From positions 1 to 24,000 of the forward strand of contig CAVVHK010000021.1 in NCBI GenBank assembly GCA_963747865.1: a stretch of DNA of 24,000 bases. The letters are read 5' to 3'. Under the pieces are notes generated by a model. It saw only the letters and a list, made by a program, of their open reading frames with translations, had not been told where the DNA came from and ran no database searches. Below are positions 440 to 16,287 of the stretch, piece by piece. Within the stretch, counting starts at the first letter, position 1, and every line of letters begins with the position of its first letter. The position numbers and the translations under genes were made by a program. Source of the DNA: an uncultured delta proteobacterium. GTDB lineage: Bacteria > Desulfobacterota > Desulfomonilia > Desulfomonilales > Desulfomonilaceae.

Positions 440-1037
440 ATGGAAACATTAACAAAAAAGCAAAAACAAATTTTCGACTTCTTCAACTCATATATAGAAG
501 ACAATGGCATATCCCCTACCTTTAGGAGATAGGAAAAAATTTAAGCTGAAAGCGATATCTACTGTCCATGAACATATCGGGATGATTAAAAAAAAAGGCT
601 ATCTTTTAAAAACCGAACAGCTCTCAAAGAAGTTTCGCGCCAAAAAAAGAAAACAAATCTAGTTATAGAAATACCTATAGTCGGGCGAATCCATGCCGGC
701 CAGCCGATTGAGGCAATTGAAAATATGAGGATACGGTTTCGGTAGTCAATCCGAAAATAAAAAAAGCTAACGGCTATTACGCCCTGCGCGTTGCGGGAAA
801 TAGCATGATCGATGAAGGAATTTTCGACGGCGATATTGTTGTCATCAAAAAACAATCTGTTGCAGACAATGGCCAGACCGTCGTGGCTATCATCGACGAA
901 AATCAGGCCACTCTTAAAAAACTCTATCGGGAGAAAAACAGGATAAGGCTCGAACCGAGGAATCCAAATATGCTTCCAATTTTCAGGAAAGATGTTGAGA
1001 TCAGGGGCGTCGTCGTGCAGGTAATAAGCGATATTAA
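440..1037 (+). pseudogene. LexA-like repressor (winged HTH plus S24 peptidase domain), frame broken about 3 times; C-terminal end uncertain
   Basis: Frame-hopping translation from ATG 440 gives four segments. They are METLTKKQKQIFDFFNSYIEDNGISPTF; then IGKKFKLKAISTVHEHIGMIKKKGYLL (HTH); then IPIVGRIHAGQPIEAIEN (Ala-Gly cleavage-site region); then YYALRVAGNSMIDEGIFDGDIVVIKK...ATLKKLY (S24 Ser and Lys motifs, ORF 805..). Breaks lie near 530, 650 and 725. As written, the last frame runs on into the methyltransferase without a stop. A TAA at 1035-1037 is reachable in another frame. Confidence 0.75.
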
Positions 1038-2013
1038 TGACAAGCCCGAACAAGCTTCAACTAAAAAAACAAAACATGGATTTAAAACGCTGGATCTTTT
1101 TGCCGGAGTAGGCGGAATAAGATTGGGATTTGAAAAGGCCGGATTCAAAACGGTATTTGCAAACGATTTTGACGCGCAGTGCAAGAATACATATGATTTG
1201 AATTTCAAAAAATCAAAGCTTGTCGTAGAAGACATAAGGAAAGTTGGGATCGACGATCTTCCTGAATTTGATTTTTTGCTGGGAGGTTTCCCCTGCCAGG
1301 CTTTTTCCATCGCCGGATACAGGAAGGGCTTTGACGATGAAAAAGGCCGGGGAAATTTATTCTTTGATATTGCAAGAATTTTAGATGCTCGCAAGCCTGA
1401 AGGATTCTTGCTGGAAAATGTGAAAAATTTAAGAAGCCACGACGGAGGAAAACATTTAAAATAATTCAGGAAGCTCTGGAAGGCCTCGGATACCATATTA
1501 AAACAAAAGTTCTGAACAGCATGGAATATGGAAATGTTCCGCAAAATCGCGAGCGCATTTATATCGTGGGATTTAAAAACGCAGAATACCGCGATAAGTT
1601 TGAATTTCCGAATCCATCAAAACTCACAACAAAAATTACAGACCTCCTAGAAAAAAATGTTAATGAAAAATATTATTATAATGGAAAGCCCTTGTTTGAG
1701 AAGCTAAAAAATTTCGTAAAGGACGAAGGAAAAGTCTATCAATGGCGCAGGCAATATGTCCGAGAGAATAAAAGCGGAGTCTGCCCGACTTTACTGCAAA
1801 CATGGGAATGGGAGGCCACAACGTGCCGATTATAAAAGATGGAAACGGCATAAGGAAGCTTACTCCCTTGGAATGCTTTAGAATCCAGGGCTTCCCCGAG
1901 GATTTCCAATTGCCTAAAATATCAGACTCAGCTTTTATAAGCAAGCAGGAAACTCTGTAAGCGTCCCTGTGCTTGAAGCTGTAGCAAAACAAATGATGAG
2001 GGCTATGTCGTAG
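1037..2013 (+). pseudogene. DNA (cytosine-5)-methyltransferase, frame broken at least 3 times
   Basis: The C5-MTase motifs occur in order across three frames. They are DLFAGVGG (I), GGFPCQAFS (IV), ENVKNL (VI), PQNRERIYIVGF (VIII), CPTL(T)ANMGMGGHNVP (IX region) and QAGNSVSVPV (X). The gene ends MMRAMS then TAG at 2011-2013. Breaks lie near 1455 (A-run), 1790 and 1935 (T-run). A candidate ATG at 1037 overlaps a TAA (TAATG) but is in a different frame from the body. Confidence 0.85.
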
Positions 2014-2528
2014 CTACCAGACCTTCACGGATTTTGCCAAAGGTTTTATTCCATATCTCGCAATTATCTCTTTCTTGATGCCAAACCTCGGACGCCTTTT
2101 CTGCTCCTGCTGGTCGGTGAATTTCTCTTTTTTATTAAGGCTTGGTTTTTTATATATTTATTAGGAATCAAATATACGTCGAAATATCCATCGCATTTCC
2201 CATCGTTGTAAAAATCAAGCAAGTACAAATCGTCCCATTTGGATTTCGGCCCGAACGTGGTCAAATCTTTCTCAATGCTGCAAGGCTTAATCTGTTGGGC
2301 TTTCCCTGTTTTTAAATCAAAAGTATCAAATGATCCGGCAATGCCCTTATTCGTTCCCTTGATTTTAAGATATCTCCCCGCCCCGGACCATAAACAAAAA
2401 GCAACTTCGGATAATCCTTCAGGAAAATTCGGCTCCCTGGCTTTATAATCCCTTAAGCCAAGCTTGAGGTTTTTCCAAATATCAAAAATGTCCTTCCATT
2501 TCTTGCCGTCAGTTTTATCAAAATGCAT
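2014..2528 (-). pseudogene. Putative type II restriction endonuclease (PD-(D/E)xK-like), C-terminal frameshift
   Basis: ORF 2064..2537 is convergent with the methyltransferase and meets it tail to tail at 2013/2014. It contains SFDTFD...CSIEKD, compatible with a D...(D/E)xK nuclease motif. After the T/A-run near 2131 a second frame continues KKEKFTDQQEQKRRPRFGIKKEIIARYGIKPLAKSVKVW to a stop at 2014-2016. The first ATG is at 2528; the track start at 2537 is TTG. The assignment rests mainly on context. Confidence 0.5.
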
Positions 2529-2762
2529 TAATTGCAAATTGCATTTCTGGCCGAAAACTTTGGTTCGTGTTCTTGAATTTCCATAAATTGTTTAAAATGA
2601 TTATTAGTTGAATTATCATATTCACTCTATTACTAAAAATGGCCGCTTTCAAGTGCTTTTGAGCTGGCGGGTTTTGAGGCACAGGGTCTGGACTAATAGG
2701 CACAATTGCGTCATTCCTTGTACTTGAGGGGTAAACTATTAACCAACCCTTCAAGCAAAAAC

Positions 2763-4086
2763 ATGGAACAAATAACACAAATAAAAAACAGTCTGCCGTC
2801 CCCTCCTCCTGTGATTATCGGGAAAATAAAGTACTGCCTTTATGCCAGGAAAAGCACAGAATCAGAGGAACGGCAGGTAATGTCGATAGATTCGCAGATA
2901 AAAGAAATGTTGCAGGTCGCAGAACGGGATGGGCTGGAAATCGTGGAAATCCGGCGAGAATCGCACTCTGCTAAAAATTCCAGCGAGAGGCCTGTGTTCA
3001 ATTCAATAGTTGAGGATATTAGATTAGGAAAATTCAACGGCATAATGACATGGGCGCCGGACAGGCTTTCCAGAAACGCTGGAGATTTAGGATCGCTAGT
3101 GGATTTGATGGATCAAAAATTATTGGCAGAGATAAGAACGCATAGCCAGATATTCACAAATAATCCGAATGAAAAATTTCTGCTAATGATATTGGGCAGT
3201 CAGGCAAAACTGGAAAATGATAACAGAGGTATTAACGTAAGGCGTGGCCTTCGTACCCGGTGTGAAATGGGCTTGCGGCCGGGCACAGCGCCAACAGGAT
3301 ATTTGAACGAAAAAAGGATTGATCGAAAATGCCAGGTTGCGCTGGATCTAGAACGAGCCCCGATTATCAAAAAAATGTTTGAAAAAGTGGCATTCGAAAA
3401 TTGGTCTGGCATAAAGCTTTATCACTGGATGAGATTTGAAATTAATTTCCGTACAATACATCAGCACCATCTTTCATTAAGTAATATCTACTTAATTTTA
3501 AGAAATACTTTTTACTACGGCGTTTTTGAATATCCAGAACACAGCGGCAACTGGTACAACGGAAAACACGAACCGATTATTGATAAAGATTTATTTGATA
3601 AGGTTCAACACCAACTAAAAGTAGATTATGTCAGAACAGAAAAGGAATTTGCTTTCACAAAACTTATAACTTGCGGACACTGCGGATCGGGAATTTCGGC
3701 TAGAGAAAAATTCAAAAAATTAAAAAATGGTAAGACATTGAAATTTATTTATTACGGATGCAGTAAAGTCCAGAAATTTACATTGCCACGAAGGCTATCT
3801 TCGGGAAGAGGATTTAATTAAACAACTGATGGATATTATTGATAAAATGGACTGAATGATATTGAAGTAAAACACAAATTCCCAAGAAGAGGTAAAAAGA
3901 TACAATATATTCCAAAAACGTGTATTAAAAAATGGAGATAATGAACAACCGCAAAAAGACGTAGATATTAAGAGTTATATGAAATATTTACTCAAGGAGG
4001 GCAGTATATCAGAAAAACGAGAAATACTTTCCTGCATAAAAAATAAGATTGTGATTAGAAAGAAAATTTTAAGCATAGAACAATAG
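2763..4086 (+). pseudogene. Large serine recombinase (resolvase/invertase catalytic domain, recombinase domain and zinc ribbon), C-terminal third frame-broken
   Basis: ORF 2706..3821 shows YARKSTESEE...SIDSQ (catalytic Ser region), DRLSRN, the recombinase-domain YYGVFEY and a CGHCG...YYGC zinc ribbon. The C-terminus continues in other frames: RNLHCHEGYLREEDLIKQLMDIIDKMD, then LNDIEVKHKF, then QEEVKRYNIFQKRVL...ILSIEQ, with TAG at 4084-4086. The likely start is ATG 2763 (MEQITQIK). Confidence 0.85.
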
Positions 4087-4091
4087 AAAAT

Positions 4092-4120
4092 AAAAACAGA
4101 GTTTTTTGAGCTCTGTTTTT
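4092..4120. terminator. Bidirectional hairpin terminator between the convergent recombinase and maf genes
   Basis: AAAAACAGAG (4092-4101) pairs with CTCTGTTTTT (4111-4120) across a 9-nt loop. The A-run and T-run flanks would serve either strand. Confidence 0.6.
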
Positions 4121-4135
4121 AACTTTTGAACTTGG

Positions 4136-4719
4136 CTACAATTTTTCTAAAACGTTAACACCAAAATTTTTGAGCTCTTCCACTAACGGTAACATTGGCA
4201 GCCCTACAACATTGAAATAATCCCCCTCAATCTTTTCTACAAAAATTCCTCCGCGATGTTGCATGGCATAGGCGCCGGCTTTATTCACGGCTCGCCCAAA
4301 GAAATATAGTCATCAATATCTTTTTCCGAAATATCTGTAATAAAAACTTTTGTTTCTACCGATCTGGTAGCTTGTTTATTTGTTTCCGTATCGATTATTG
4401 TAAATCCAGTAATAACAGAATGCGCTTTTCCGCTGAGTTTATTTAGCATAATTTTAGCATTTTCTTTTGTATGCGGTTTGCCAAGAATTTCCTTATCTAA
4501 AATACAAAAAGTATCGGCTGCAATAATAATGGAATTTTCGTGCCTCTTTGCCACATCTTTTGCCTTTCCCAAAGATAAAAATTCCGCCAATTTACTTGGC
4601 TCCATTTTTAAGGTCATATCTTCTTCGTAATTACTTGGGTCCACTTCAAATTCCAAGCCAATTTGATTTAATAAATCTCTTCTTCCCTGAGAGCCTGACG
4701 CTAAAATTATTTTTTTCAT
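4136..4719 (-). pseudogene. maf: Maf-like nucleoside triphosphate pyrophosphatase, single frameshift near 4285
   Basis: ORF 4285..4719 reads MKKIILASGSQGRRDLLNQIGLEFEV...GKAHSVITGF...DYISLGEP. The conserved C-terminus VNKAGAYAMQHRGGIFVEKIEGDYFNVVGLPMLPLVEEL follows in another frame down to TAG at 4136-4138. Confidence 0.85.
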
Positions 4720-4742
4720 ATTTTATATTTTTAAATTATTTT

Positions 4743-4753
4743 ATTATATCACA
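4743..4753 (-). promoter_or_regulatory. Extended -10 promoter for maf
   Basis: The minus strand reads TGTGATATAAT (TGnTATAAT) about 24 nt upstream of ATG 4719. No Shine-Dalgarno motif lies between them. Confidence 0.45.
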
Positions 4754-4756
4754 AAT

Positions 4757-4783
4757 AAAAAACCCGCGGATAAACCTTGCGGG
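4757..4783 (-). terminator. Rho-independent terminator of the hammerhead-containing operon
   Basis: The minus strand reads CCCGC-aaggtttatcc-GCGGG followed by TTTTTTATTT. It lies about 40 nt after the stop (4821-4823) of the receiver-like gene. Confidence 0.65.
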
Positions 4784-4820
4784 AAGTTGATGAGCTCAAA
4801 CTTCTAAGCTTTTTTTGAAG

Positions 4821-5509
4821 TTATTCAGCGCGATCAACGATGAGTCGCTGGAGAATCCCTCCCCAGTTTTTGCCGCCTTCGATGCGATCGTGCCGCACCA
4901 TGGTGAACTGCCGTATTTTCCTTCCCAGCTTCTGACTCAAGAAAGTATCGGGAATCAGTTCGCCCGTGTGTTCATCCAACCACACAAGGCTGAAGCCGTT
5001 GGTGCAAATCAAGCGAATGCCCTTTGCCTTGCTGGTCCCGGAGAAACAGTACGAGTGCGTCGAACGCACGATGGTCATGGTGACCCATATCCGTTACTAC
5101 GGCAACATTTTTGACGCCAGCATGAATTGCCAACAGGGCAATGATCGCACCCAGGGGCATCTCTTGTCCAGCAAAGCGCTCACCCTTTTCGCCAAGCTTT
5201 GCCGTGATGCGGGCATAAGCAGATACGGTCAAGACGACGTCGAAATTCGGATAAGTCGTGGCCTTCTCCATGCATTCCTGATAGTATTGCATGCGAATCG
5301 GTTTCTCCTGCGAATCCTTGCAGTCATACGGATCGGTGCTTCCGTACTTCTCCTTAAAAAAACGCTTCCGCGCGCTCACGATTCTTTTTCGGCACAAGTG
5401 CCGCCTGCGCTTGATCATAATTGCCGACGATCGTGAGATCGTGACCCTTCAGAGTCAACTCAGCCGACTTGCGGTGGACAGGACTGTCATCAAACACCAA
5501 AATCTTCAT
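4821..5509 (-). pseudogene. CheY-like receiver-fold protein of unknown function, frame broken at least twice
   Basis: ATG 5509 is preceded by AAGGAG. The N-terminus MKILVFDDSPVHRKSAELTLKGHDLTIVGNYDQAQAAL looks like receiver strand beta1 with its acidic pair. The gene continues through ORF 4972..5418 (break in a T7 run near 5355) and ORF 4821..5078 (break near 5050). After NFDVVLT, the receiver-like motif DLLMPAS is readable only one frame off. Confidence 0.55.
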
Positions 5510-5537
5510 CACACTTCTCCTTATTCAGTTTTCCAAA

Positions 5538-5594
5538 GAACCCTGTTTCGTCCTTTCGGACTCATCAGCGAGGATACACATCCGAACAAGACCC
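5538..5594 (-). ncRNA. Hammerhead ribozyme motif, type III topology (copy 1)
   Basis: Minus-strand RNA: GGGUCUUGU-U-CGGAUGUGUAUCCUCG-CUGAUGA-G-UCC-GAAA-GGA-C-GAA-ACAGGGUUC. The CUGAUGA and GAA cores are intact. Stem II is 4 bp closed by a GAAA tetraloop. Stem III is open, formed by GGGUCUUGU with ACAGGGUUC and several G-U pairs. The cleavage triplet is GUU, and stem I is GGAU/AUCC plus a closing C-G with a 2-nt bulge. Confidence 0.8.
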
Positions 5595-5648
5595 ATATCT
5601 TCTTGACATGGGCTGTGATTTTTTAAGTATCACAACTTCTTTCAGTCG

Positions 5649-5804
5649 TCACTTTTTCTTTGGAGTCATCCTCCGAAAGAAATCGCGGACTTGATTCGCC
5701 AGCTCGATGATCTTTTGATCAGTGAGTTCTTTCTTGGGAATCATGAAGACATCAGCAGCGATGCGCGCCAGACGCTTGTCTTCCTTTGTCGGTTTTGCTT
5801 TCAT
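5649..5804 (-). CDS. Small hypothetical protein (51 aa)
   Basis: It is absent from the ORF track because it is under 60 aa. ATG 5804 is preceded by AAGGAG at good spacing. Translation: MKAKPTKEDKRLARIAADVFMIPKKELTDQKIIELANQVRDFFRRMTPKKK, stop at 5649-5651. It lies between the two ribozyme-led genes on the same strand. Confidence 0.45.
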   Translation of the reverse strand: MKAKPTKEDKRLARIAADVFMIPKKELTDQKIIELANQVRDFFRRMTPKKK

Positions 5805-5840
5805 CTAAAGCTCCTTGGTTTGAGTAATTACTGTAATTGG

Positions 5841-6451
5841 TTACGATGCCCGAATGGCCAACAATGTATCGCACCATTGAAGTTGATTCCATTTGTCAGC
5901 CTCACTGAGACCTGCAACAAGACATTTGCATTTGTTGTCACAACCGGTTGCTGGATAATGTACATATCCGGCACCCTGACCAGGCCCCGACCACAAGTTG
6001 CCGAGCGCCTTAACGCTGAACATTTCATCTTTCCAATGTTGAGCGCCGAAAGCCAGGATGCTGATCCCTCGCAGGCCCTAGGCCCATGTGCCACAAGCGC
6101 TTAATCGCCTCATCAATCTTCATGCGCTCTGCATACTCATCGCCGCAGATAATAAGAAAAGCTTCGAATTCGACGATTCCGTTGCCGTTTATCGAAAATT
6201 TCTTGGTGCCGAAATCTTTGTCGACAGAGCTATATCCTCCGGCGGCGATCATCTCTTCAATGGACATGGAGTAATCAATCCTAATTGTGAAGCGCCTCTT
6301 AGTCTTGCGTTCAATCTTCACAATCTGTTCGGCGATGCAGTCCATAACTCCCTTCGCCTTCGAATGAAGAACATTGACGCATATGAGTTCCACCCTTTGC
6401 CTTCACCGAAGCTTCGATCTCAGTCCAAATATTCTTCAATTCTTTTGACAT
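5841..6451 (-). pseudogene. Hypothetical protein (~200 aa) of unknown function, frame broken at least twice
   Basis: ATG 6451 (MSKELKNIWTEIEASVKAKG) joins ORF 6025..6393 (...SIEEMIAAGGYSSVDKDFGTKKFSINGNGIVEFEAFLI...EAIKRLWHMGL). That joins ORF 5841..6023 after a break near 6065 (...ISILAFGAQHWKDEMFSVKALGNLW...LLAIRAS). I do not recognise a named family. Confidence 0.5.
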
Positions 6452-6488
6452 GATTCAAATTCCCCTATAGTTTTTTTCAAAGAACTTT

Positions 6489-6541
6489 TCCTGTTTCGCT
6501 CTTTTGAGCTCATCAGCGAGAGCACGCACTCTCGGACAAGA
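6489..6541 (-). ncRNA. Hammerhead ribozyme motif, type III topology (copy 2)
   Basis: Minus-strand RNA: UCUUGU-C-CGAGAG-UGCGUG-CUCUCG-CUGAUGA-G-CUC-AAAA-GAG-C-GAA-ACAGGA. All invariant core positions are present. Stem I is a perfect 6 bp with a hexaloop, stem II is 4 bp with an AAAA loop, and open stem III is 6 bp. The cleavage triplet is GUC. Confidence 0.88.
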
Positions 6542-6920
6542 GCCCACTCACAAGACAACTCCCGGCGATCCACAGGACCCAAGCGCTATCCATCTCAACC
6601 CAAGGAACCTCTTTTTCGGAGGACGGAATCCGCGCAGGCGCCACTCAAACGCAAGGACACATGGTCGCTCACGCCTGCCCCCGTTCATATAAAGATACGA
6701 AGCTATTTACGAACCGCTCTACTCGTCTCGTGCGTTAGCGAAGGCCTTGCAGGGCTTTCGCCGGTAAATCAATTATGAAGATGGCGCCCAAACGTCGCAT
6801 TTGCGCCCTTTGAAGCGCTCCCGCTTTAAATTTGAAATTGGCCCGAGGGAAGTATTGCAGCCGGCTCGAAGCCGTAATTTCGATATTTCGGGAATTCGCC
6901 CGCGGGTGTTCACACTGCAA

Positions 6921-7526
6921 TTACTTGTTTATTTTCGCCAATTGACCGATCAATTCTTCCAATCTCGGAACTGTATTGATATCGTGAATTTCTATGTACC
7001 TAATTATCCCTTGTTTGTCTATTACGAACAATGCCCTCTCCGCTGTGCCGTCACCTCTAAGCACTCCATAACTCTGAGCTACCGCGCCGTGAGGCGAAAA
7101 GTCGGAGAGCACCGGGAACCAGACGCCGCCCATTTCTTTAGTCCAGGCGAATAGGGTTGGCGCGTTATCAACGGAAATTCCGAGCACCACCGCCTGGTTC
7201 TTTTCAAAATACTCCTTGGCAATGTTGTAGCCCGGCCATTGCTGGGAGCATACAGGGGTCCATGCGGCGGGAACAAACGATAACACAACGTTTTTTTTGC
7301 CCCTGAATTCGCTCAAGCTTACTTTGCCCCCTGAAACTGACGGCAGAGTGAACTGCGGCGCAACGTCGCCCACTTTGGTCTTCAGTTGGCTGTCCGTGGC
7401 TTTGAGCGTCCCCGGATTGAAAATGCGCGGGTCCATTGGACTAGGGCCTTCCGGGTTCGCGGCCGATCCGACAAGACAAATCATGACGAAGACAACCGGC
7501 GACACTATGAATTTGGTTAAGCTCAT
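6921..7526 (-). CDS. Peroxiredoxin (AhpC/TSA family) with N-terminal signal or anchor sequence
   Basis: 201-aa ORF. It has a hydrophobic N-terminus and [36 protein letters not shown], with the peroxidatic Cys in TPVC. The thioredoxin-fold remainder is intact. Confidence 0.9.
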
Positions 7527-7535
7527 GATTAAGCC

Positions 7536-8103
7536 CTAAAAAGATTCGTCGTTGCGGATTCTCTTCAGAAACCCCTCGGTATCCTTAATGCGTCCCAAAT
7601 GAACCCCCTTGACCTCAAAGGCTCCTGAACCGACCTTCTTCAGGGTACAAGAACGTCGGGGTCCGAACATGCTCGGAGAAGGCCTTCTGCACCGCAAATG
7701 AATCATCAGGCAGAAGAGGAAACTTGATGTCGTATTTTTTTCTGAACACGTCCACTTCAAAGGGCGTATTCCCGACTCCTATGCCCAACACTTTCAATTT
7801 GGTTTTTAGACTTTCATCTTTCTCAACCGCTGAGAACAGCTCGTTCACATTCGGCGCTTCCGCTTGACAAATCGGGCAATACATACTGAATATTTCCACG
7901 AGTAGGTAGGCCGCCGGAGCCTCAGAAAGCGTGAAGGACTCTTTCTTCTTCACCTGCAAGTAGGCCTGTTCATCTGCGTTCTTCGGGGCCTGGAAACGAA
8001 TCTTGCTCAGAGCGGTTGTGTCCACTTTAAGGGATGTGGCCATTGCGAAACCGGCGGAAACAGCGAAGGCGCAAATTAACAAAACAATTAAACGGTTACG
8101 CAT
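7536..8103 (-). pseudogene. TlpA/ResA-like thiol-disulfide oxidoreductase (CPIC motif), apparent single frameshift near 7655
   Basis: The real start is ATG 8103 (MRNRLIVLLICAFAVSAGFA, a signal peptide). It has a YCPICQ redox motif and then ...HVRTPTFLYP. The expected last strand and helix (LKKVGSGAFEVKGVHLGRIKDTEGFLKRI) lie in the frame of ORF 7536..7760. Confidence 0.75.
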
Positions 8104-8176
8104 AGCAATTCCCCGACGAACTCCGTCTGTCACGAGAACGCCCCATCCTGCCGAGCCGCGTCTATCGCGCTTACGA

Positions 8177-8365
8177 TCATTTGGCCCCCGGCATGGGAAC
8201 AGGCTTAAACATTTTCTTGGTGGCGCCGCAGATCGGGCATTTCCAGTCATCGGGAAGGTCTTCAAAGGCCGTCCCTTTGGGAATCTTCCCTTTCCTATCC
8301 CCTCTGGAAGAGTCATAAATATATCCGCAATTCACAGTTTGGCACTGATAGAGTTGTTGGCTCAT
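8177..8365 (-). CDS. rub: Rubredoxin
   Basis: 62 aa with [13 protein letters not shown] and [15 protein letters not shown], the two Cys-x-x-Cys knuckles of rubredoxin. Confidence 0.92.
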
Positions 8366-8474
8366 TTGGCGCCCTTGAATCCTTTCAGGTTAGATCTCAG
8401 GTAAATCGGCTCCTCAGATAATTCTGATCGCTTCGGATCGCGCTACTGAACCGTATCCATTCGGTTACGCGGGG

Positions 8475-8559
8475 GAGATTGCTTCGCCCCGCTCGCAATG
8501 ACAAGCCCAAATGTCATTGCGAGGACTGAAATCCCGCGTTCCGGCGGGAAAGCAATCTC
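8475..8559. repeat. Nested inverted-repeat element (REP/MITE-like)
   Basis: The outer arms GAGATTGCTT (8475-8484) and AAGCAATCTC (8550-8559) enclose the perfect inner arms CTCGCAATGACA (8492-8503) and TGTCATTGCGAG (8512-8523). A related half copy lies at 9489-9523. Confidence 0.7.
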
Positions 8560-8743
8560 TGTATTCGCCGCTCATGACTGAATGGTTACAATGAACCAAT
8601 ATACCGATCTTCGAAAGCAGCGGGTCAATGAACGGGCTGCAATAATTATATCTCGTGAAGAGATTCGGGGAAGGCCTTTTTCCAAAGAAGCCCTCCCGCG
8701 TATCTCTTCCAAACACCCTTAGATTTGGCGACTTGCTCTAATA

Positions 8744-9115
8744 TCAGTCCTTCCAAAGTCCGTGCAGGTTACAGTATTCACGCGCCGTCCATTCGCCCTC
8801 CACAGGGAATACGGCTTCAGGAGCCTGGCCAGGTTTTAAGAATTGCTTGTAGGTTTTGTCGCCCGAAATAATCTCCACCCACTCGATAAAATGCTTTTCT
8901 TCCATAGGGTGAGGAACGGAGCCCACCTTCACCTTCAGCCCGCCGGCCACTGTCTCCTTCACCGGGACATGTTTCTCTTTAGCAGCGTCAACAGTGTTTT
9001 CTTTGAACAATTTCATAGCTTGGCCGCAACAAACAAGTTCTCCAACGCCAGTATGTACCATTTCCACAATGTTTCCACAAATTTCACATTTGTAAACCTG
9101 AAGAAGCTCTGTCAT
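8744..9115 (-). CDS. dfx: Desulfoferrodoxin (2Fe superoxide reductase)
   Basis: 123 aa. It has the N-terminal desulforedoxin-like CEICGN...VCCG and the C-terminal SOR centre residues ([23 protein letters not shown]). Confidence 0.93.
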
Positions 9116-9488
9116 AACAACCTCCGAATTCCAGCATTAGAAAGTGTAGATTCAATATCCGAGGAACCAAATCCCCCCTGTGACTCAAAGGCTTCCGGTC
9201 TTTTTTCATCATACAAATTTTTGCTGAGACTTACAATTTGATTACGACGCCGCAAAGAGTCGCCGGTCCCGAACATTCCAGATGGCCGACCTAATAGACG
9301 CAATAATTAAGACTTTGAGCGGATATTTCGGCGGGCCTTTCTCTGAAAGAAGGCCCATCCGGGAGCCTCTCCCCGAAGCTCTTAAAGTCATCCGCATTCA
9401 AAACTCCGGGAACTTCGGAACCGTGCGGAGCCGAATTCTGTCGTTGAGGGGGTTGTAGCCAATGGCAATCTCATCGTCCATAAAACGT

Positions 9489-9523
9489 GAGATCGCTTCG
9501 TGGCTTCGCGCCTCGCAACGACA
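9489..9523. repeat. Partial copy of the 8475-8559 repeat family
   Basis: GAGATCGCTTCGTGGCTTCGCGCCTCGCAACGACA resembles GAGATTGCTTCGCCCCGCTCGCAATGACA at 8475-8503. The second arm is absent. Confidence 0.5.
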
Positions 9524-9576
9524 TATTTGCAGATCAAAGCAATTGAAGCGCTTTTTTACCTATGCGGCGAATCGAT

Positions 9577-9605
9577 AAAAAAATGACTACAGGTTCTGAA
9601 ACCTG
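9577..9605 (-). terminator. Rho-independent terminator after rubrerythrin
   Basis: The minus strand reads CAGGTT-tcag-AACCTG (9605-9590), followed after 6 nt by TTTTTTT (9583-9577), directly after the stop at 9608. Confidence 0.55.
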
Positions 9606-9607
9606 AT

Positions 9608-10183
9608 CTACCAATTTTCAGCCAAAATCTCGAAATACGATTGCGGGTGGGCGCAAGCCGGACAGGCGTCCGGGGCTCCATTTCCTTCATGAAGATAGCC
9701 GCAGTTTATGCATCTCCAAACTACGGGGCTTTCTTTTTTGAAGACCAGGCCCTGCTCCACGTTGCGAAGCAGATGCAAGTAGCGTTTTTCATGCTGTTTT
9801 TCAGCGACGCAAACCGCTTCCCAAATTTTTGCGGCGACATCAAATCCTTCGGCGTAGGCTGTCTTGACGAAACCGGGATAGAGTTCAGTCCACTCAAAAT
9901 GCTCCCCTGCCGCAGCTTCTTTCAAGTTATTCATTGTGGCCGCAATTACGCCCGCGGGAAACGCTGCTTGGATAACCAAATCGCTTCCCTGGAGCTGCTT
10001 AAAAAACCTTTTTGCATGCTCTTTTTCTTGATTGGCGGTTTCTTCGAAAATCTGGGCGATTTGAACAAACCCCTCGTTCTTGGCCTGCGAAGCAAAATAA
10101 GTGTATCGATTGCGAGCCTGGGATTCTCCTGCAAACGAAATCAGAAGGTTCTTTTCGGTTTCGGAACCCTTCCAGTCCACCAT
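9608..10183 (-). CDS. rbr: Rubrerythrin
   Basis: It starts at ATG 10183 (MVDWKGSETEKNL) with AAAGGAGA upstream. It has di-iron four-helix motifs (ESQARNRY, EKEHAK, EKQHEKRY) and a C-terminal rubredoxin-like CINCGY...CPACAHP. Confidence 0.92.
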   Translation of the reverse strand: MVDWKGSETEKNLLISFAGESQARNRYTYFASQAKNEGFVQIAQIFEETANQEKEHAKRFFKQLQGSDLVIQAAFPAGVIAATMNNLKEAAAGEHFEWTELYPGFVKTAYAEGFDVAAKIWEAVCVAEKQHEKRYLHLLRNVEQGLVFKKESPVVWRCINCGYLHEGNGAPDACPACAHPQSYFEILAENW

Positions 10184-10263
10184 TGATGTTCTCCTTTCAT
10201 CGATTAATTTGGCGTTGGTCAAGCGCTTTAAACCGCTTGGCAAAATAGAAATTCCAAAACAGC

Positions 10264-10713
10264 TCAGCATAATTTCCCTTCGGGCCGCCCGCCGGATGCG
10301 AGCTCTCCCTCTTCCAGCTCGGGATGTTTACGTCTGCAATCCGGACACAACCCCATGAACTCCAATTTGTGCCACAGAACTTTATAGTCGCTCACCTGAG
10401 CGAGCGTCTGGTCAATCATGGAAATAGGATCCAGGGGCGCATCATCGACGCGCTGACACTTAACACACCTTATGTGGTAGTGATTGGCCGCTTTCCCGTC
10501 GAACCTCTTCTGCGAGCCCGCCATCTCTAACTTCAAGATGACTCCCATTTCCGAAAGAAGTTCCAGATTCCTGTAAACCGTCCCCAGGCTGATTTTAGGC
10601 AAACGTCGGCGCACCATTTCGTAGACCTCCACGGCGGTAGGGTGTGAATGCACCTTACTGAGCTCTTCGATTATGATGCGACGCTGATTTGTCACCCGCG
10701 GCCGAGCGTTCAA
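10264..10713 (-). CDS. perR: Fur-family transcriptional regulator, PerR-like by context
   Basis: 149 aa with a winged-helix N-terminus (HPTAVEVYEMV...ISLGTVYRNL), HYHIRCVKCQRV and a CPDC Zn-site motif. It lies immediately upstream of rubrerythrin. The start appears to be TTG 10713, with AAAGG upstream. Confidence 0.75.
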   Translation of the reverse strand: MNARPRVTNQRRIIIEELSKVHSHPTAVEVYEMVRRRLPKISLGTVYRNLELLSEMGVILKLEMAGSQKRFDGKAANHYHIRCVKCQRVDDAPLDPISMIDQTLAQVSDYKVLWHKLEFMGLCPDCRRKHPELEEGELASGGRPEGKLC

Positions 10714-10749
10714 TCCGTTTACCTTTCAGTAATAGTAATCAGTCTCATT

Positions 10750-10778
10750 AAGCTACAATCACTCGCTCTGACTGTCAA
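10750..10778 (-). promoter_or_regulatory. Candidate sigma-70 promoter of the perR-rbr unit
   Basis: The minus strand has TTGACA (10778-10773), a 17-nt spacer and TAGCTT (10755-10750). A tandem AGTAAT-AGTAAT (plus strand 10728-10739) lies just downstream in the leader as a candidate operator. Confidence 0.4.
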
Positions 10779-10799
10779 GAGAAACTTTCCCCACTTCGA

Positions 10800-11498
10800 T
10801 TATTTTTGCGCCGGATCGGGAACGCCGACCTCTTCGAACCCTTTTTTTCTTAATATGCAACTATCGCAATGTCCGCATGGCCTCCCGGACGGAGTAGGAT
10901 CGTAGCATGAATGGGTAAGGCCGTAATCCAGCCCCAGTTCCAGGCCTTTCTTAATTATCTCCGCTTTGGTCAGCATTATCAATGGAGTATGAATTGTCAT
11001 CTTGAAGCGGCCTTCCACAGCCTGTTTCGTGGCCAAGTTGGCCATGGCTGCGAACGCTTCGATGTATTCCGGTCTGCAATCGGGATAACCCGAGTAGTCT
11101 ATGGCGTTGACTCCTATGAAGATATCCGCGGCCCTAAGGACTTCGGCCCAAGCCAGAGCAAACGATAGGAATATCGTGTTCCTTGCGGGCACATAGGTTA
11201 TTGGAATCCCGACCTGCATTTCTTCAAGGCTGCGGCTCTTCGGGACTTCCAAATCCGAAGTGAGAGCCGAACCGCCGATTTTGTCCAGCGGCAACTCCAG
11301 AACCAAATGTTCGATGACTCCGGCCGCCTGGGCCACTTTTTGCGCGGCTTCCATTTCCACCCGGTGGCGTTGGTGATAATAGAAACTGATGGCATGTAAT
11401 TGGTAACCTTGAGCTTTTGCAATAGCCAAACATGTGGAGGAATCCACTCCACCGGAAAGCAGCACAACCGCTTTTCCAGGTGATTTCGTCAAATCCAT
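10800..11498 (-). CDS. queC: 7-cyano-7-deazaguanine synthase QueC
   Basis: It starts at ATG 11498 ([21 protein letters not shown], a PP-loop) with AAGGAGA upstream. The C-terminal Zn motif is [14 protein letters not shown]. The 303-aa track ORF is an upstream over-extension. Confidence 0.92.
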
Positions 11499-11665
11499 AT
11501 TGGTCTCCTTGTTCGTAAGCATGCCCAGAGAGAAAACTTTTCTTGTGCAACGGATTGACGCCGACGACCATGGGCTTCTCCCATGGCTACCCATGGGAAC
11601 TCCCCCGCAGGAGGACAAGTGGAGGCCGTCATGACGCCATCTTGGAAGTTCTTGAATCGAGGTCG

Positions 11666-11697
11666 GGAGGGGAACTTCCTTGAAGTAGTTCCCCTCC
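11666..11697 (-). other. Perfect 11-bp hairpin in the arsS-queC spacer
   Basis: GGAGGGGAACT (11666-11676) pairs with AGTTCCCCTCC (11687-11697) across a 10-nt loop. No U-tract follows on either strand. Confidence 0.5.
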
Positions 11698-11733
11698 GGC
11701 AGCTCTCTCATGAGGGCTCTTACCTTAATTCTA

Positions 11734-11749
11734 CGCTCGAACTCAAGCG
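11734..11749 (-). promoter_or_regulatory. Candidate bacterial SECIS hairpin for the arsS-like UGA
   Basis: The minus strand reads CGCUUG-AGUU-CGAGCG, a 6-bp stem including one G-U and a loop containing GU. It starts 14 nt after the UGA. Confidence 0.55.
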
Positions 11750-12723
11750 ACTATGGCGCCCCCTCAGGTGAATCCCGAGCCGGCGGTACATGCGTAACAG
11801 TGATCCGATACCGCAATGTTGGCTCCCGGAGCAGGTGGACGGTCAACCTCAGACACACTGGTCCGAATCCCCCCGGCAGGAATTCCGGCAGCCAAGTTGA
11901 AATCGCAATCATAAAGATAACCGTCCCACGACACCGAAATGAGGCTTCTGCACATCAGGCCGGGGACCGTGCAAGGGTTAAATTGGCCGGCCAATTTCTT
12001 GAGGTAAGATTCGTAGTTGCCGGACGCGAGCAACCAGCTCTTGAATCTGCCCAACGGAACGTTGGCGAAAGTGAAAAGATTGCTGAACTCGATGGCCCAT
12101 TTTTCCTTGAGCTCCCGACGAAACCTGTCTCCGGCCTCCTGCGGGCCGGGCGGCAAAAACGCGCCGGCGGGATTGCTCACAAGGTTGAGTTCCAAACCTG
12201 TCTCAGGGAGCCCATAACCCGCTCGGTTGAGCAGTCTTAACGCTTCGATGGTTTTGTCAAACAAACCGAAACCGCGTTGAGTCTCCAACTGGCGCAGATT
12301 AGTCGAAGGAAAAGAACCGACGATCACTACGCCCAAATTCGCGCATGCTGACACTATTTCATCCGATGGTCGTTCGACCAGGACCGTTAGATTCGAGCGC
12401 AGCATTACGCGTGGGGCCGCATGTGAGGCTTTCTTCAACAAATACAAAAGATTTGGGTTTAACTCCGGGGCGCCTCCGGTTATGTCTATTACCTGAAAGG
12501 CCGATTTTTCGGCAAAGTCCACCACGAGACCCATGGTCTCGCGTGTCATGATTTCCTCCCGATCGGGCCCCGCCTCGAGGTGGCAATGGCGACAAGCCTG
12601 ATTGCAGGCAAACCCGACGTTAACCTGCAAGACGCCTGTTTCCGCGCGCTTTAGATCCAGCCCGTGCTTGGTCAGCGCGCCGTGAAACGGCAGGATTCCC
12701 TCAATTCTGGCTGCGATGGACAT
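11743..12723 (-). CDS. arsS: ArsS-like radical SAM / Cys-rich domain protein, probable selenoprotein (UGA at 11766-11764 read as Sec)
   Basis: It has the radical SAM motif CNQACRHC near the N-terminus and a long Cys-rich C-terminal domain ending [31 protein letters not shown]-like hairpin follows the first TGA. From memory, members of this family carry Cys or Sec at this C-terminal position. Confidence 0.8.
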
Positions 12724-12739
12724 TGCGTCGGCCTACGTC

Positions 12740-13073
12740 TTACAAAGACATCTTTGTCGCAACGTTACGCATCTGGATGCCATGCACGAGCGACGATCCT
12801 CCGCGAATAGCCACGGCCACATGCACAGCTTCAGTCATTTCGTCCAGGTTCGAGCCCTTTTCCAGGCAAGCCTGAGTATATGCGTCAATACAATACGGAC
12901 ACTGCACCGTGTGCGCCACGGCCAGGGCTATCAGCGACTTTTCTCGTTCCGTGAGCGCCCCCGCCTTAAAAACCGTGGCATAATATTCGAAAAACTTCTT
13001 CGCCGGCTCAGGCGCGTCTTCTCCTATCTCGCCGAACTTCAATAGGTCCTTTGGATCGTAGGTACGTTTCCAT
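12740..13073 (-). pseudogene. AhpD-like (carboxymuconolactone decarboxylase family) peroxidase-like protein, apparent 1-nt frameshift at the N-terminus
   Basis: ORF 12740..13042 has ALTEREKSLIALAVAHTVQCPYCIDAYT, the AhpD-type CxxC. Upstream, ATG 13073 gives METY and then, one frame off, YDPKDLLKFGEIGEDAPE joins the ORF. No in-frame ATG or GTG exists otherwise; the track start is TTG. It is adjacent to the ArsS-like gene, a pairing I recall for this family. Confidence 0.75.
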
Positions 13074-13298
13074 TTTTGCCCCTTCGTGGTCGAGCGGTCG
13101 AAAATCTCTCTTGAGTTTGAGAGCGATGTATACTACCCACAATATTAATGGGCTGAGCAACCAAAGCAAAGAGTAATTTGACTTCGCGCCTGTTAAGAAG
13201 TTTTCCGGCCGTTTGCCGGGGCGTGTCTCCTTGGCGCCGTCAAAGTAATTACAGCGATAAACGATCACCATTTCCGAAAAAAGGAATCAAATACAATC

Positions 13299-15201: not shown

Positions 15202-15208
15202 GTGTAAT

Positions 15209-15255
15209 GGTTCACAGGGAGACCTCTGCTTGGCAAAAGGGTTTCCCGGTGAACC
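15209..15255. terminator. Long imperfect hairpin between convergent genes
   Basis: GGTTCAC (15209-15215) pairs with GTGAACC (15249-15255). Further imperfect pairing inside (GGGAGACC with GGGTTTCCC) extends the stem. Confidence 0.4.
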
Positions 15256-15273
15256 AGGGCCAGGGTTCCAACT

Positions 15274-16128: not shown

Positions 16129-16287
16129 GACGTTCGGTCGAAAATCCCGCTTAATTTCATTACCTTAATACTAACACAGTCGACCGCTTGCGGCAATGGC
16201 GTTGGGGCGCAACGTTCAGAAAGGACATTTATTATGTCCTCCGGGAGGAATGCCTCGGCTCTCCGCAAAATTACCGAAAACGTATGC

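What the first reader, a model, noticed from the sequence alone, without database searches (positions are those of the whole stretch)
6489..6541. Complete type III hammerhead ribozyme motif in the leader of a minus-strand gene
The minus strand reads 5'-UCUUGU C CGAGAG UGCGUG CUCUCG CUGAUGA G CUC AAAA GAG C GAA ACAGGA-3'. Every invariant hammerhead core position is present: CUGAUGA, GAA, the A15.1-U16.1 pair and a GUC cleavage triplet. The three helices sit where the motif requires them. Stem I is a perfect 6-bp hairpin, stem II a 4-bp hairpin, and stem III is open, which is type III topology. The predicted cut falls between 6535 and 6534 on the minus strand. The motif ends 37 nt before ATG 6451, so self-cleavage would detach that gene's mRNA from upstream RNA. 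It would leave a 5'-OH end capped by the folded ribozyme. Hammerheads are known in bacteria, mostly in phage-like contexts. This instance sits in a non-phage-looking operon next to a redox cluster.
Basis: partly seen in the sequence, partly recalled or inferred. Interest (0 to 1): 0.85.

Follow-up and report, generated by a model that had tools for sequence, protein, structure and literature searches.

The report
Paired hammerhead ribozymes in mobile element
The sequence is a genuine type III hammerhead self-cleaving ribozyme, one of two flanking a small gene block beside a recombinase gene, an arrangement already known from phage-like elements, so it is a well-formed but ordinary example.

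Summary
Window 6541-6489 (minus strand) carries every invariant hammerhead core base, a GUC cleavage triplet, three helices in type III topology, and a predicted cut between 6535 and 6534. Rfam RF00008 matches it end to end at 41.1 bits. That is below the curated cut-off of 48.5, but only 1 of about 30 clear relatives in ten related loci passes that cut-off. A covariance model built only from relatives in viral contigs and two MAGs scores it 71.8 bits (E about 1e-15). Across 34 relatives, stems I and II are 98-99% paired with many compensatory changes.

The two enclose 950 nt holding two small genes. The "non-phage operon" reading fails. The pair lies beside a large serine recombinase and a restriction-modification system. 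Its relatives are multi-hammerhead arrays on viral contigs and recombinase-bearing contigs.

Most likely function, inferred and not shown: cutting a polycistronic transcript into separate mRNAs. In this assembly the genes after both ribozymes are frame-disrupted, so the copy may be vestigial, or the assembly may carry indel errors. This is a new member of a known kind.

The parts
6489..6541 (-). HHR1, a type III hammerhead ribozyme. Stem III is 6541-6536/6494-6489, C17 is 6535, and the cut is between 6535 and 6534. Stem I is 6534-6529/6522-6517 with loop 6528-6523. The core CUGAUGA is 6516-6510. Stem II is 6509-6506/6501-6498 with loop AAAA 6505-6502. GAA is 6497-6495.
   Evidence: Sequence. 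RF00008 41.1 bits, full length. Family model R1 75.4 bits. Leave-out model R2 71.8 bits. Covariation in 34 relatives.
6452..6488 (-). Leader between HHR1 and the start codon. It holds a conserved block GUUCUUUGAAAA (6485-6474) and a Shine-Dalgarno-like AGGGGA (6466-6461).
   Evidence: Sequence. The same block follows the ribozyme in 12 of 19 hammerheads of the closest group.
5841..6451 (-). Gene A, a member of a roughly 205-aa protein family of unknown function. As assembled it is broken into three reading frames by two frameshifts (6451-6311, 6393-6025, 6023-5841).
   Evidence: ORFs and three-frame translation. 69 remote homologues, typically about 205 aa. Their sequences match all three pieces. 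No Pfam family.
5649..5804 (-). Gene B, an intact 51-aa ORF of unknown function and the last gene before HHR2.
   Evidence: ORF list. No convincing family match.
5591..5613 (-). Stem-loop directly 5' of HHR2 (GCCCAUGUC..GAUAUGGGU). After cleavage it would lie at the 3' end of the upstream RNA.
   Evidence: Folding, -12.7 kcal/mol. A hairpin at this position occurs in 72% of 53 related hammerheads against 10% of controls. The orthologous hairpin in L046 has a different sequence but the same structure.
5540..5592 (-). HHR2, a second type III hammerhead with a GUU triplet and a cut between 5585 and 5584. The core is complete and stems II and III are intact. Stem I is weakened by a 2-nt gap in its 5' strand relative to the family.
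   Evidence: RF00008 33.1 bits. R1 57.6 bits. Leave-out R2 48.4 bits, E 7.5e-10. Alignment gap.
4821..5509 (-). Gene C, a CheY-like roughly 229-aa family member directly downstream of HHR2 (leader 5539-5510 with AAGGAG). It is broken by 7 frame-altering indels relative to its closest intact homologue.
   Evidence: 226 homologues covering 97-100% of the reconstructed protein. tblastn in three frames. Indel map against L046. Homologues in L046, L047 and L049 are also preceded by the same hammerhead type.
4757..4783 (-). Terminator-like hairpin with a U-run after gene C. The G+C content drops here from about 0.49 to about 0.33.
   Evidence: Sequence. Composition.
2706..4250 (+). Large serine recombinase gene, frame-disrupted, convergent with the hammerhead array.
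   Evidence: Pfam Resolvase, Recombinase and Zn_ribbon_recom. Frames. It has a 39-47% identical homologue (intact, 523 aa) placed convergently next to a three-hammerhead array in L116.

Best explanation
HHR1 is a genuine type III hammerhead self-cleaving ribozyme. Together with HHR2 it forms a two-ribozyme array inside an accessory, recombinase-associated gene block that abuts a Desulfobacterota oxidative-stress gene cluster.

The proposed mechanism is as follows. When the minus strand is transcribed, HHR1 folds and cuts after C6535. This releases whatever RNA lies upstream. The downstream mRNA is left with a 5'-OH, the compact ribozyme body, an A/U-rich leader and a ribosome-binding site 37 nt before the gene A start codon. 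HHR2 would do the same 950 nt further on, separating genes A and B from gene C. The upstream piece would then end in a stem-loop plus a 2',3'-cyclic phosphate.

The net effect is intercistronic punctuation and insulation. A polycistronic or read-through transcript is converted into separate mRNAs with defined ends and independent stability or translation.

Shown here: the motif, its family membership, covariation, the array architecture, and the compact intercistronic placement in relatives. Inferred: that the ribozyme cleaves, and what cleavage achieves. In this particular copy the genes behind both ribozymes are frame-disrupted, so present-day function is uncertain.
For: Complete core and three helices. 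Full-length RF00008 match, E 6e-6 over the window. Leave-out family model: 71.8 bits for HHR1 and 48.4 bits for HHR2. In 34 relatives stem I is 99.2% paired with 6 of 7 pairs changed on both sides, and stem II is 98.5% paired with 3 of 4. The covariation score is 0.615 against 0.225 in shuffles, with 0 of 500 shuffles reaching it. Sixteen related loci carry 2 to 6 same-strand hammerheads. Across 55 related hammerheads the ribozyme starts a median 29 nt after the upstream stop codon (where an ORF of 50 aa or more ends within 200 nt, 39 of the 55), and the next start codon lies a median 24 nt after its end. A strong hairpin lies immediately 5' of the ribozyme in 72% of cases against 10% of controls, p = 1.4e-10. 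Gene C homologues in L046, L047 and L049 are preceded by the same ribozyme and the same leader. A homologous serine recombinase lies convergent to a three-hammerhead array in L116. Literature: multiple hammerheads flanking single genes or short gene blocks near integrases in prophages. Three such arrays cleaved in vitro, and processing of long transcripts was proposed (PMC3088659; reviews PMC6765202, and PMC6155905).
Against: No cleavage assay or transcript data exist for this locus. The Rfam score is below the curated cut-off. No promoter-like site was found upstream of HHR1, so transcription is assumed. Gene A has 2 frameshifts and gene C has 7 frame-altering indels. The array may therefore be a decaying remnant. 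HHR1 lacks the strong 5' hairpin typical of the family (-6.9 kcal/mol). With flanks included, thermodynamic folding prefers a competing helix between 6546-6540 and 6511-6505 that would disrupt stem II. HHR2 has a weakened stem I and a GUU triplet. From general knowledge of hammerhead kinetics, GUU is cleaved more slowly than GUC. The biological purpose of such arrays remains unproven in the literature.
Confidence: 0.72

Rival explanations
1. Relic. HHR1 is an intact-looking hammerhead inside a horizontally acquired element that is decaying. It may still cleave if transcribed, but it serves no purpose in this genome.
For: Frame disruptions in nearly every gene from 800 to 7700: C5 methyltransferase, serine recombinase, Maf, gene C (7 indels), gene A (2) and a TlpA-like gene. 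HHR2 carries a 2-nt deletion in stem I. No promoter-like site upstream of HHR1.
Against: HHR1 has no defect at any of the 16 modelled pairs or the core positions, and it scores among the better family members. All gene disruptions are indels, with no nonsense substitutions in the aligned frames. Several sit in homopolymers or next to CGAT/GATC-like sites, which fits sequencing or assembly error as well as decay. Trinucleotide composition of 4780-6900 is host-like.
Confidence: 0.3
2. Assembly chimera. The hammerhead-bearing left part of the window (up to about 6900) comes from a different organism than the Desulfobacterota redox cluster, and the adjacency is an artefact.
For: All similarity to hammerhead-rich contigs is confined to window 2800-6600. 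Named gene C homologues are mostly Patescibacteria, whereas QueC on the right side is closest to Syntrophobacteraceae, Desulforhabdus and Desulfomonile. Indel density is far higher on the left. G+C falls to about 0.33 left of 4780.
Against: The 4780-6900 segment has host-like G+C (0.49) and a host-like trinucleotide signature (r = 0.87 with 7000-24000). It is unlike the true Patescibacteria loci L003 and L050 (r = 0.2-0.3). One frameshift also lies in the right-hand TlpA-like gene near 7650. A serine-recombinase island inserted in a chromosome explains the same facts.
Confidence: 0.15
3. Circular RNA. The two hammerheads excise the 950-nt RNA 6534-5585, and its 5'-OH and 2',3'-cyclic phosphate ends are joined (by RtcB or by the ribozyme running in reverse) into a circular RNA encoding genes A and B, as in eukaryotic retrozymes.
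For: Two same-strand type III hammerheads lie 950 nt apart with the same stem III (UCUUGU/ACAGG). The 3' end of the excised RNA could therefore re-pair with the HHR1 body with 6 cross pairs.
Against: In related arrays the stem III strands of neighbouring ribozymes are often incompatible. At least five neighbour pairs have 2 or fewer cross pairs despite good pairing within each ribozyme (the rows of that output where a ribozyme's own pairing reads 1 were mis-parsed by my script and are not counted). Ends are therefore not generally designed to meet. Perreault et al. looked for circular or spliced products from bacterial arrays and found none (PMC3088659). HHR2 is weakened.
Confidence: 0.05
4. 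Chance resemblance. The motif is a fortuitous match with no ribozyme ancestry.
For: The Rfam score is below the gathering cut-off.
Against: E 6e-6 over the window. A second copy lies 950 nt away. There are dozens of relatives with compensatory changes. Orthologous placement upstream of gene C homologues.
Confidence: 0.01

Closest known systems
Hammerhead ribozyme type III (Rfam RF00008, clan CL00010)
   Same: The same invariant core (C3 U4 G5 A6 N7 G8 A9, G12 A13 A14, A15.1-U16.1, H17). The same three-helix junction, with stems I and II capped and stem III open. Loop 1 and loop 2 positions are conserved (U and G in loop 1, A residues in loop 2), consistent with loop-loop tertiary contacts.
   Different: The Rfam model scores this bacterial and viral subfamily low. 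HHR1 scores 41.1 and HHR2 33.1 against a cut-off of 48.5, and 1 of about 30 relatives passes. The subfamily has a very uniform minimal design: stem I of 6-7 bp with a 4-6 nt loop, stem II of 4 bp with an NAAA loop, and stem III of 4-6 bp.
Clustered hammerheads flanking genes in prophage-like regions (Perreault et al. 2011, PMC3088659: Clostridium scindens, Azorhizobium caulinodans, Agrobacterium tumefaciens arrays)
   Same: Several same-strand hammerheads flank single genes or short blocks of small, non-conserved genes near an integrase or recombinase. Anti-restriction and other accessory genes are among the cargo. An anti-restriction gene (phrog_7245) precedes one viral relative, and a restriction-modification system lies next to the window array.
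   Different: Here the recombinase is a large serine recombinase. No phage structural genes are visible in the window. The host is a Desulfobacterota-like chromosome. The cargo genes (A and C) belong to families that elsewhere sit in housekeeping contexts without ribozymes. Cleavage was not tested here.
RiboJ-type synthetic insulators (sTRSV hammerhead plus hairpin placed before a ribosome-binding site).
   Same: A type III hammerhead sits just upstream of the ribosome-binding site. It removes variable upstream RNA and gives the mRNA a constant 5' end.
   Different: This is a natural element. The accompanying hairpin lies 5' of the ribozyme, so it stays on the upstream product, not 3' of it. 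An insulating effect here is only inferred.
Retrozymes and viroid-like circular RNAs with paired type III hammerheads
   Same: Two same-polarity type III hammerheads bracket a segment of about 1 kb, with compatible stem III strands.
   Different: The segment is protein-coding bacterial DNA and shows none of the retrozyme hallmarks. Related arrays lack conserved end compatibility. No circular products were found for bacterial arrays.

Membership tests
Hammerhead ribozyme, type III | Invariant catalytic core: CUGANGA, GAA, the A15.1-U16.1 pair, and a non-G residue at position 17 | tested here: met
   HHR1 has CUGAUGA at 6516-6510, GAA at 6497-6495, A6494-U6536 and C17 at 6535. HHR2 has the same core with U17 at 5585.
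Hammerhead ribozyme, type III | Three helices around the core, with stems I and II closed by loops and stem III open, and no mispair next to the core | tested here: met
   HHR1: stem I 6-7 bp, stem II 4 bp, stem III 6 bp, and all pairs adjacent to the core are Watson-Crick. HHR2: stems II and III are intact, and stem I has a 2-nt gap or bulge.
Hammerhead ribozyme, type III | Score at or above the curated Rfam gathering cut-off (48.5 bits) | tested here: not met
   41.1 bits for HHR1 and 33.1 bits for HHR2. The cut-off is also missed by all but one of about 30 obvious relatives in ten loci. This therefore reflects the model's training set. The E-value is still 6e-6 over the window.
Hammerhead ribozyme, type III | Helices supported by compensatory changes in homologues | tested here: met
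   In 34 relatives, 13 of 18 pairs show changes on both sides, and stems I and II are 98-99% paired. Sliding the partner strand drops pairing to 34-44%. Caveat: some relatives were picked by a script that required pairing. However, 26 of 41 viral hits found with a stem-blind pattern already showed perfect stems.
Hammerhead ribozyme, type III | Mg-dependent site-specific self-cleavage yielding 2',3'-cyclic phosphate and 5'-OH ends | not testable with these tools
   This needs in vitro transcription and cleavage assays.
Clustered prophage/mobile-element hammerhead arrays (Perreault 2011) | Two or more same-strand hammerheads flanking single genes or short gene blocks | tested here: met
   HHR1 and HHR2 are both on the minus strand. 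Their cleavage sites are 950 nt apart and enclose genes A and B, with gene C after HHR2. These are the only two in the window with search filters off.
Clustered prophage/mobile-element hammerhead arrays (Perreault 2011) | Proximity to an integrase/recombinase or phage genes | tested here: met
   A large serine recombinase lies at 2706-4250, about 1.3 kb from HHR2. A homologous recombinase lies next to the L116 array. The same ribozyme design occurs on at least 26 IMG/VR contigs. No phage structural gene was identified in the window itself.
Retrozyme-like circular RNA elements | Circular RNA product; end-joining helix conserved between flanking ribozymes | tested here: inconclusive
   The window pair is cross-compatible with 6 pairs, but related arrays often are not. 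Circular RNA cannot be tested here.

The most novel reading that the evidence does not exclude
The two hammerheads share an identical stem III. They could therefore excise the 950-nt RNA 6534-5585 and hold its 5'-OH and 2',3'-cyclic-phosphate ends together for ligation. The product would be a circular bacterial mRNA encoding genes A and B, a prokaryotic counterpart of retrozyme circles. A less radical novel reading is that the recurrent unit of stem-loop, hammerhead and A/U-rich leader is a portable intercistronic cassette. It would build a hairpin-protected 3' end for the upstream mRNA and a standardised 5' end for the downstream one. It may also move between intergenic sites: the HHR2 hairpin and ribozyme resemble the unit found downstream of gene C in L047, while its leader resembles that of L046.
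Probability: 0.06. Interest if true: 0.75.

Novelty: new member of a known kind. Interest (0 to 1): 0.33.

Why it matters
Bacterial and phage hammerheads have been catalogued since 2010-2011, yet their purpose remains an open question (PMC6765202). This locus adds no new principle. It is a clean example from a Desulfobacterota-like genome, and the comparison made here sharpens the picture of one subfamily in three ways. First, the ribozymes sit in a very compact unit: stop codon, about 30-nt stem-loop, 55-nt ribozyme, about 24-nt leader, start codon. Second, the 5' stem-loop is a statistically strong companion. It would become a 3'-terminal protective hairpin after cleavage. I did not find it mentioned in the one discovery paper I searched for it (Perreault et al. 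2011). Third, the Rfam type III model misses almost the whole subfamily at its curated cut-off, so routine annotation under-reports these ribozymes. These points give concrete, testable handles for the mRNA punctuation and insulation hypothesis.

Tried and rejected
- My first genome-collection pattern had the wrong spacer length (12 N instead of 10). Its empty result therefore means nothing. The corrected pattern found 4 loci, of which 2 are true hammerheads.
- Exact look-ups of window proteins did not recover the source contig or its organism name.
- The cluster look-up showed only that the source is a 347,808-nt NCBI/ENA contig.
- No similarity to the region was found in plasmids or annotated phages. 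The single Pelagibacter phage hit has a hammerhead-like core but scores only about 19 bits on the type III family model, so it does not belong to this subfamily.
- Pfam, PHROGs and PADLOC gave nothing convincing for genes A, B and C.
- An AlphaFold model of the gene C family is confident (pLDDT 93.7). It has no PDB match at E <= 1e-3, only a weak receiver-domain resemblance.
- The metagenome scan for "ribozyme 3' end plus leader" returned 69 loci, of which only 5 hold hammerheads. The rest are chance matches.
- Gene A homologues fetched from two contigs have no hammerhead nearby. The ribozyme is therefore not tied to that gene family.
- I tested whether the roughly 330-aa ORFs preceding many viral hammerheads are capsid genes, which would have suggested differential expression of an abundant protein. 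They are not.
- I looked for pairing of the conserved UUCUUUGAAAA leader with the ribozyme or the ribosome-binding site by eye and by folding. I found nothing consistent across relatives.
- Promoter and terminator scans were no better than shuffled sequence.
- A tRNA-like sequence next to a hammerhead in L049 is not called as a tRNA.

Full report
**1. The observation**

The minus strand of window 6541-6489 reads UCUUGU-C-CGAGAG-UGCGUG-CUCUCG-CUGAUGA-GCUC-AAAA-GAGC-GAA-ACAGGA.
- Stem III: 6541-6536 with 6494-6489, 6 bp including one U-G.
- C17 at 6535, with the scissile bond between 6535 and 6534.
- Stem I: 6534-6529 with 6522-6517.
- Core CUGAUGA at 6516-6510.
- Stem II: 6509-6506 with 6501-6498, loop AAAA.
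- GAA at 6497-6495.
- 37 nt between the motif and ATG 6451.

Rfam at curated thresholds reports nothing in the window. With E-value reporting, RF00008 (Hammerhead_3) matches end to end at 41.1 bits against a cut-off of 48.5. The E-value is 1.3e-7 for the 501-nt region and 6.1e-6 for the whole window against all 4227 families. The bare pattern CTGATGA N8-30 GAAA occurs at two loci, where 0.47 matches are expected from shuffles. This is not a chance match.

**2.

The whole-window scan found a second RF00008 match on the same strand at 5592-5540, scoring 33.1 bits. It reads GUCUUGU-U-CGGAUGUGUAUCCUCG-CUGAUGA-GUCC-GAAA-GGAC-GAA-ACAGGG.
- The core is complete, and stems II and III are intact. Stem III is the same as in HHR1.
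- The triplet is GUU.
- Stem I aligns to the family with a 2-nt gap in its 5' strand, which leaves a bulge.
- The two predicted cuts (6535|6534 and 5585|5584) enclose 950 nt.
- A search with filters off, using a family model, finds only these two in the 24 kb.

**3. Relatives and family membership**

A stem-blind pattern (CTGATGAG N10 CGAAACAGG) found 41 viral contigs. Twenty-six of them carry a full type III hammerhead of the same minimal design. A related pattern found two MAG loci, one Acidobacteriota and one Saccharibacteria, with near-identical ribozymes.

I aligned 34 distinct relatives and counted pairs:

| Helix | Cells paired | Pairs changed on both sides |
|---|---|---|
| Stem I | 99.2% | 6 of 7 |
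| Stem II | 98.5% | 3 of 4 |
| Stem III, inner 5 pairs | mostly paired (the innermost 4 in every sequence, the 5th in 24 of 34) | not listed separately |

The covariation score is 0.615 against 0.225 in shuffles (0 of 500 reach it). Sliding the partner strand drops pairing to 34-44%. Caveat: part of the set was selected by a script that demanded pairing. The stem-blind viral hits show the same result.

A covariance model built without the window and without its closest relatives (A3, R2) scores HHR1 at 71.8 bits (E 1e-15) and HHR2 at 48.4 bits (E 7.5e-10). In ten related loci holding about 30 such ribozymes, only one reaches the Rfam cut-off. The sub-threshold Rfam score is therefore a property of the Rfam model and not a mark against this sequence.

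**4. What surrounds it**

*Gene A.* The ORF that starts at ATG 6451 is only 46 codons long as assembled. Three-frame translation shows a roughly 207-aa protein split over three frames. An exhaustive HMMER search with the middle piece finds 69 remote homologues, typically about 205 aa. Their sequences match all three pieces, including the N-terminus that begins at 6451. The family has no Pfam annotation.

*Gene B.* A 51-aa ORF at 5804-5649 follows gene A, and then comes HHR2.

*Gene C.* This gene starts at ATG 5509, after HHR2. It is a CheY-like protein with 226 homologues of about 230 aa covering 97-100% of my reconstruction. In the window it is split over three frames. It carries 7 frame-altering indels relative to L046, which is 78.6% identical at the DNA level.

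*Further left.* Beyond gene C lie a terminator-like hairpin, a sharp G+C drop (0.49 to 0.33 at about 4780), a frameshifted Maf gene and a frameshifted large serine recombinase. Beyond those lies a type II restriction-modification pair: a Bsp6I-like endonuclease and a split C5 methyltransferase with an S24-peptidase-like N-terminus.

*To the right of 6921.* Here lie peroxiredoxin, a TlpA-like gene (one frameshift), desulfoferrodoxin, rubrerythrin, a Fur/PerR-like regulator and QueC. I called these by eye from the ORF translations, except peroxiredoxin and the TlpA-like gene (Pfam), desulfoferrodoxin (Pfam) and QueC. The closest named relatives of QueC are Desulforhabdus, Syntrophobacteraceae and Desulfomonile at about 70-73% identity.

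HHR1 lies 380 nt beyond the peroxiredoxin stop codon. No convincing promoter or terminator was found in between.

**5. The array is a recurring architecture**

Gene C homologues in L046, L047/L048 and L049 are directly preceded by the same type of hammerhead, with a near-identical leader. In L046 the orthologous ribozyme and its upstream hairpin have different stem sequences but the same structure.
- L049 carries six same-strand hammerheads in 10 kb.
- L009 carries five, and L023 and L027 four each.
- Many other loci carry two or three.

L116 has three hammerheads and a convergent, intact 523-aa serine recombinase 39-47% identical to the window's, in the same relative arrangement as the window. 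The genes upstream of that array include SAVED-TM-like and Csx20-like proteins.

Across 55 related hammerheads, the ribozyme starts a median 29 nt after the stop codon of the upstream ORF (measured where an ORF of 50 aa or more ends within 200 nt, 39 of the 55). The next start codon lies a median 24 nt after the ribozyme. The 32 nt immediately upstream fold at -8 kcal/mol or better in 72% of cases, against 10% for windows 150 nt further upstream. The median is -11.2 against -3.5 kcal/mol, Mann-Whitney p = 1.4e-10. HHR2 has this hairpin (-12.7 kcal/mol). HHR1 has only a weak one (-6.9 kcal/mol).

ORFs preceding the viral examples include an anti-restriction protein and other "moron/host takeover" genes, not capsid genes.

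Gene A and gene C homologues also occur without any ribozyme in housekeeping neighbourhoods. The association is therefore with the element and not with a particular gene family.

This matches what Perreault et al. described in 2011. They reported multiple hammerheads flanking individual genes or short blocks near integrases in prophages, with varying gene identities, and cleavage shown in vitro for three arrays. They proposed processing of long transcripts into gene-length mRNAs, and they looked for circular or spliced products and found none (PMC3088659). Later reviews still list the function as open (PMC6765202; PMC6155905).

**6. How it most likely works**

*Shown:* a complete type III hammerhead of a covarying family, placed intercistronically in a two-member array within a recombinase-associated accessory block.

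*Inferred:*
- On transcription of the minus strand, HHR1 cleaves after C6535.
- The upstream RNA leaves with a 2',3'-cyclic phosphate.
- The downstream mRNA starts with a 5'-OH, the folded stems I and II, an A/U-rich leader and the ribosome-binding site.
- HHR2 repeats this before gene C. There the upstream product would end in a stem-loop, the position where an intrinsic terminator hairpin would protect a 3' end.

The unit would thus punctuate and insulate cistrons, giving each its own ends and potentially its own stability and translation. I give this 0.72 overall. I am about 0.95 confident that it is a true hammerhead, about 0.85 that it cleaves in vitro, and roughly 0.5 that it serves a purpose in this genome as assembled.

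**7. Caveats and rivals**

*Frame disruptions.* They are dense from about 800 to 7700 and absent from the long ORFs further right. All are indels. Several lie in homopolymers or next to CGAT/GATC-like sites. That pattern fits long-read consensus errors as well as decay. If they are errors, the HHR2 stem I gap may be one too. If they are real, the array is a relic.

*Chimeric assembly.* A chimeric join between 6542 and 6921 cannot be excluded. However, the 4780-6900 segment has a host-like trinucleotide signature (r = 0.87). It resembles L049 and L116 but not the true Patescibacteria loci, which favours an integrated island.

*Competing fold.* With flanks included, thermodynamic folding prefers a helix between 6546-6540 and 6511-6505 that competes with stem II. 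This may be noise or may attenuate activity.

*Circular RNA.* This reading rests only on the identical stem III of the two ribozymes. In related arrays neighbouring stem III strands are often incompatible (where the rows whose own-pairing value reads 1 were mis-parsed and are ignored).

**8. Verdict**

It is wrong on context, because this is not a lone ribozyme in a host redox operon. It is a new member of a known kind.

The by-products of the comparison are of modest specialist interest but do not change the category. They are the tight stop-hairpin-ribozyme-leader-start unit, the strong 5' hairpin association, a conserved UUCUUUGRAAAA block after the ribozyme in the closest group, and the near-total failure of the Rfam cut-off on this subfamily.

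Noticed in passing
window 5540-5592 (minus strand): A second type III hammerhead on the same strand, 950 nt downstream of the first.
   Followed up: yes
window 800-7700: Almost every gene in this stretch is frame-disrupted: C5 methyltransferase 805-1835, serine recombinase 2706-4250, Maf 4719-4145, gene C (7 indels), gene A (2) and the TlpA-like gene near 7650. The 844- and 854-aa ORFs further right are intact. All the disruptions are indels, several in homopolymers or next to CGAT/GATC-like sites. This is either decay of an island or assembly error.
   Followed up: partly
window 4757-4783 and leftwards: G+C falls from about 0.49 to about 0.33 exactly at a terminator-like hairpin after gene C. 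The low-GC part holds Maf, a large serine recombinase, a Bsp6I-like restriction endonuclease (2064-2537) and a C5 methyltransferase with an S24 peptidase-like N-terminal domain.
   Followed up: partly
window 6474-6485 and 5529-5540; L046, L047, L049, L070, L089, L103, L116: A conserved block (G)UUCUUUGRAAAA follows stem III within 0-5 nt in 12 of 19 hammerheads of the closest group, whatever the distance to the next start codon. I found no consistent pairing partner, and its role is unexplained.
   Followed up: partly
53 related hammerheads (loci L001-L116); window 5591-5613: A strong stem-loop with no U-tract sits immediately 5' of the ribozyme in 72% of cases against 10% of controls. Its sequence differs between orthologues while the structure is kept. 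After cleavage it would be the 3'-terminal structure of the upstream RNA.
   Followed up: yes
ten related loci (L049, L047, L046, L001, L003, L009, L027, L023, L014, L012): Only 1 of about 30 clear type III hammerheads reaches the Rfam RF00008 gathering score. Standard annotation would therefore miss nearly the whole subfamily.
   Followed up: yes
window 6540-6546 with 6505-6511 (minus strand): With flanks included, the minimum-energy fold pairs UGGGCUC upstream of HHR1 with GAGCUCA (core and stem II 5' strand). This alternative would block the active fold. Its significance is unknown.
   Followed up: no
L049 8430-8461 and 7495-8461: A tRNA-like T-arm and acceptor sequence (GGTTCAAATCCGACCCCACA) abuts a hammerhead, yet ARAGORN calls no tRNA and Rfam finds nothing in the preceding 1 kb of non-coding DNA.
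   Followed up: partly
L089 5870-6460 (minus strand): Two hammerheads 339 nt apart bracket an apparently non-coding segment. The second is followed by a long perfect hairpin and a 36-aa strongly hydrophobic ORF, reminiscent of a small toxin-like peptide.
   Followed up: no
L116 239-1580 and 5260-6831: A three-hammerhead array is preceded by Csx20-like and SAVED-TM-like genes, which are defence-system components. It is faced by an intact 523-aa serine recombinase homologous to the window's.
   Followed up: partly
L047, L049, L003: A TrmB-family regulator gene lies next to hammerhead-bearing operons in three independent loci. The gene order gene C, hammerhead, BtpA, Maf in L047 and L049 parallels gene C, terminator, Maf in the window.
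   Followed up: no
gene C family (P0003 and 41 homologues): The AlphaFold model is very confident (pLDDT 93.7, pTM 0.88). It has no PDB match at E <= 1e-3, only a faint receiver-domain likeness. Invariant residues include a DD pair, a TD..P motif and HH.HP. This is a conserved family of unknown function, common in Patescibacteria.
   Followed up: partly
L128 (Pelagibacter phage HTVC168P) 483-523 and 1252-1305: Hammerhead-like cores lie in intergenic gaps of the early region of a cultured pelagiphage. They score only about 19 bits on the type III family model and may belong to another hammerhead type.
   Followed up: no
window 6921-10713: A compact oxidative-stress cluster on the minus strand: peroxiredoxin, a TlpA-like thiol-disulfide protein, desulfoferrodoxin, rubrerythrin and a Fur/PerR-like regulator. 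This is typical of anaerobic Desulfobacterota.
   Followed up: no
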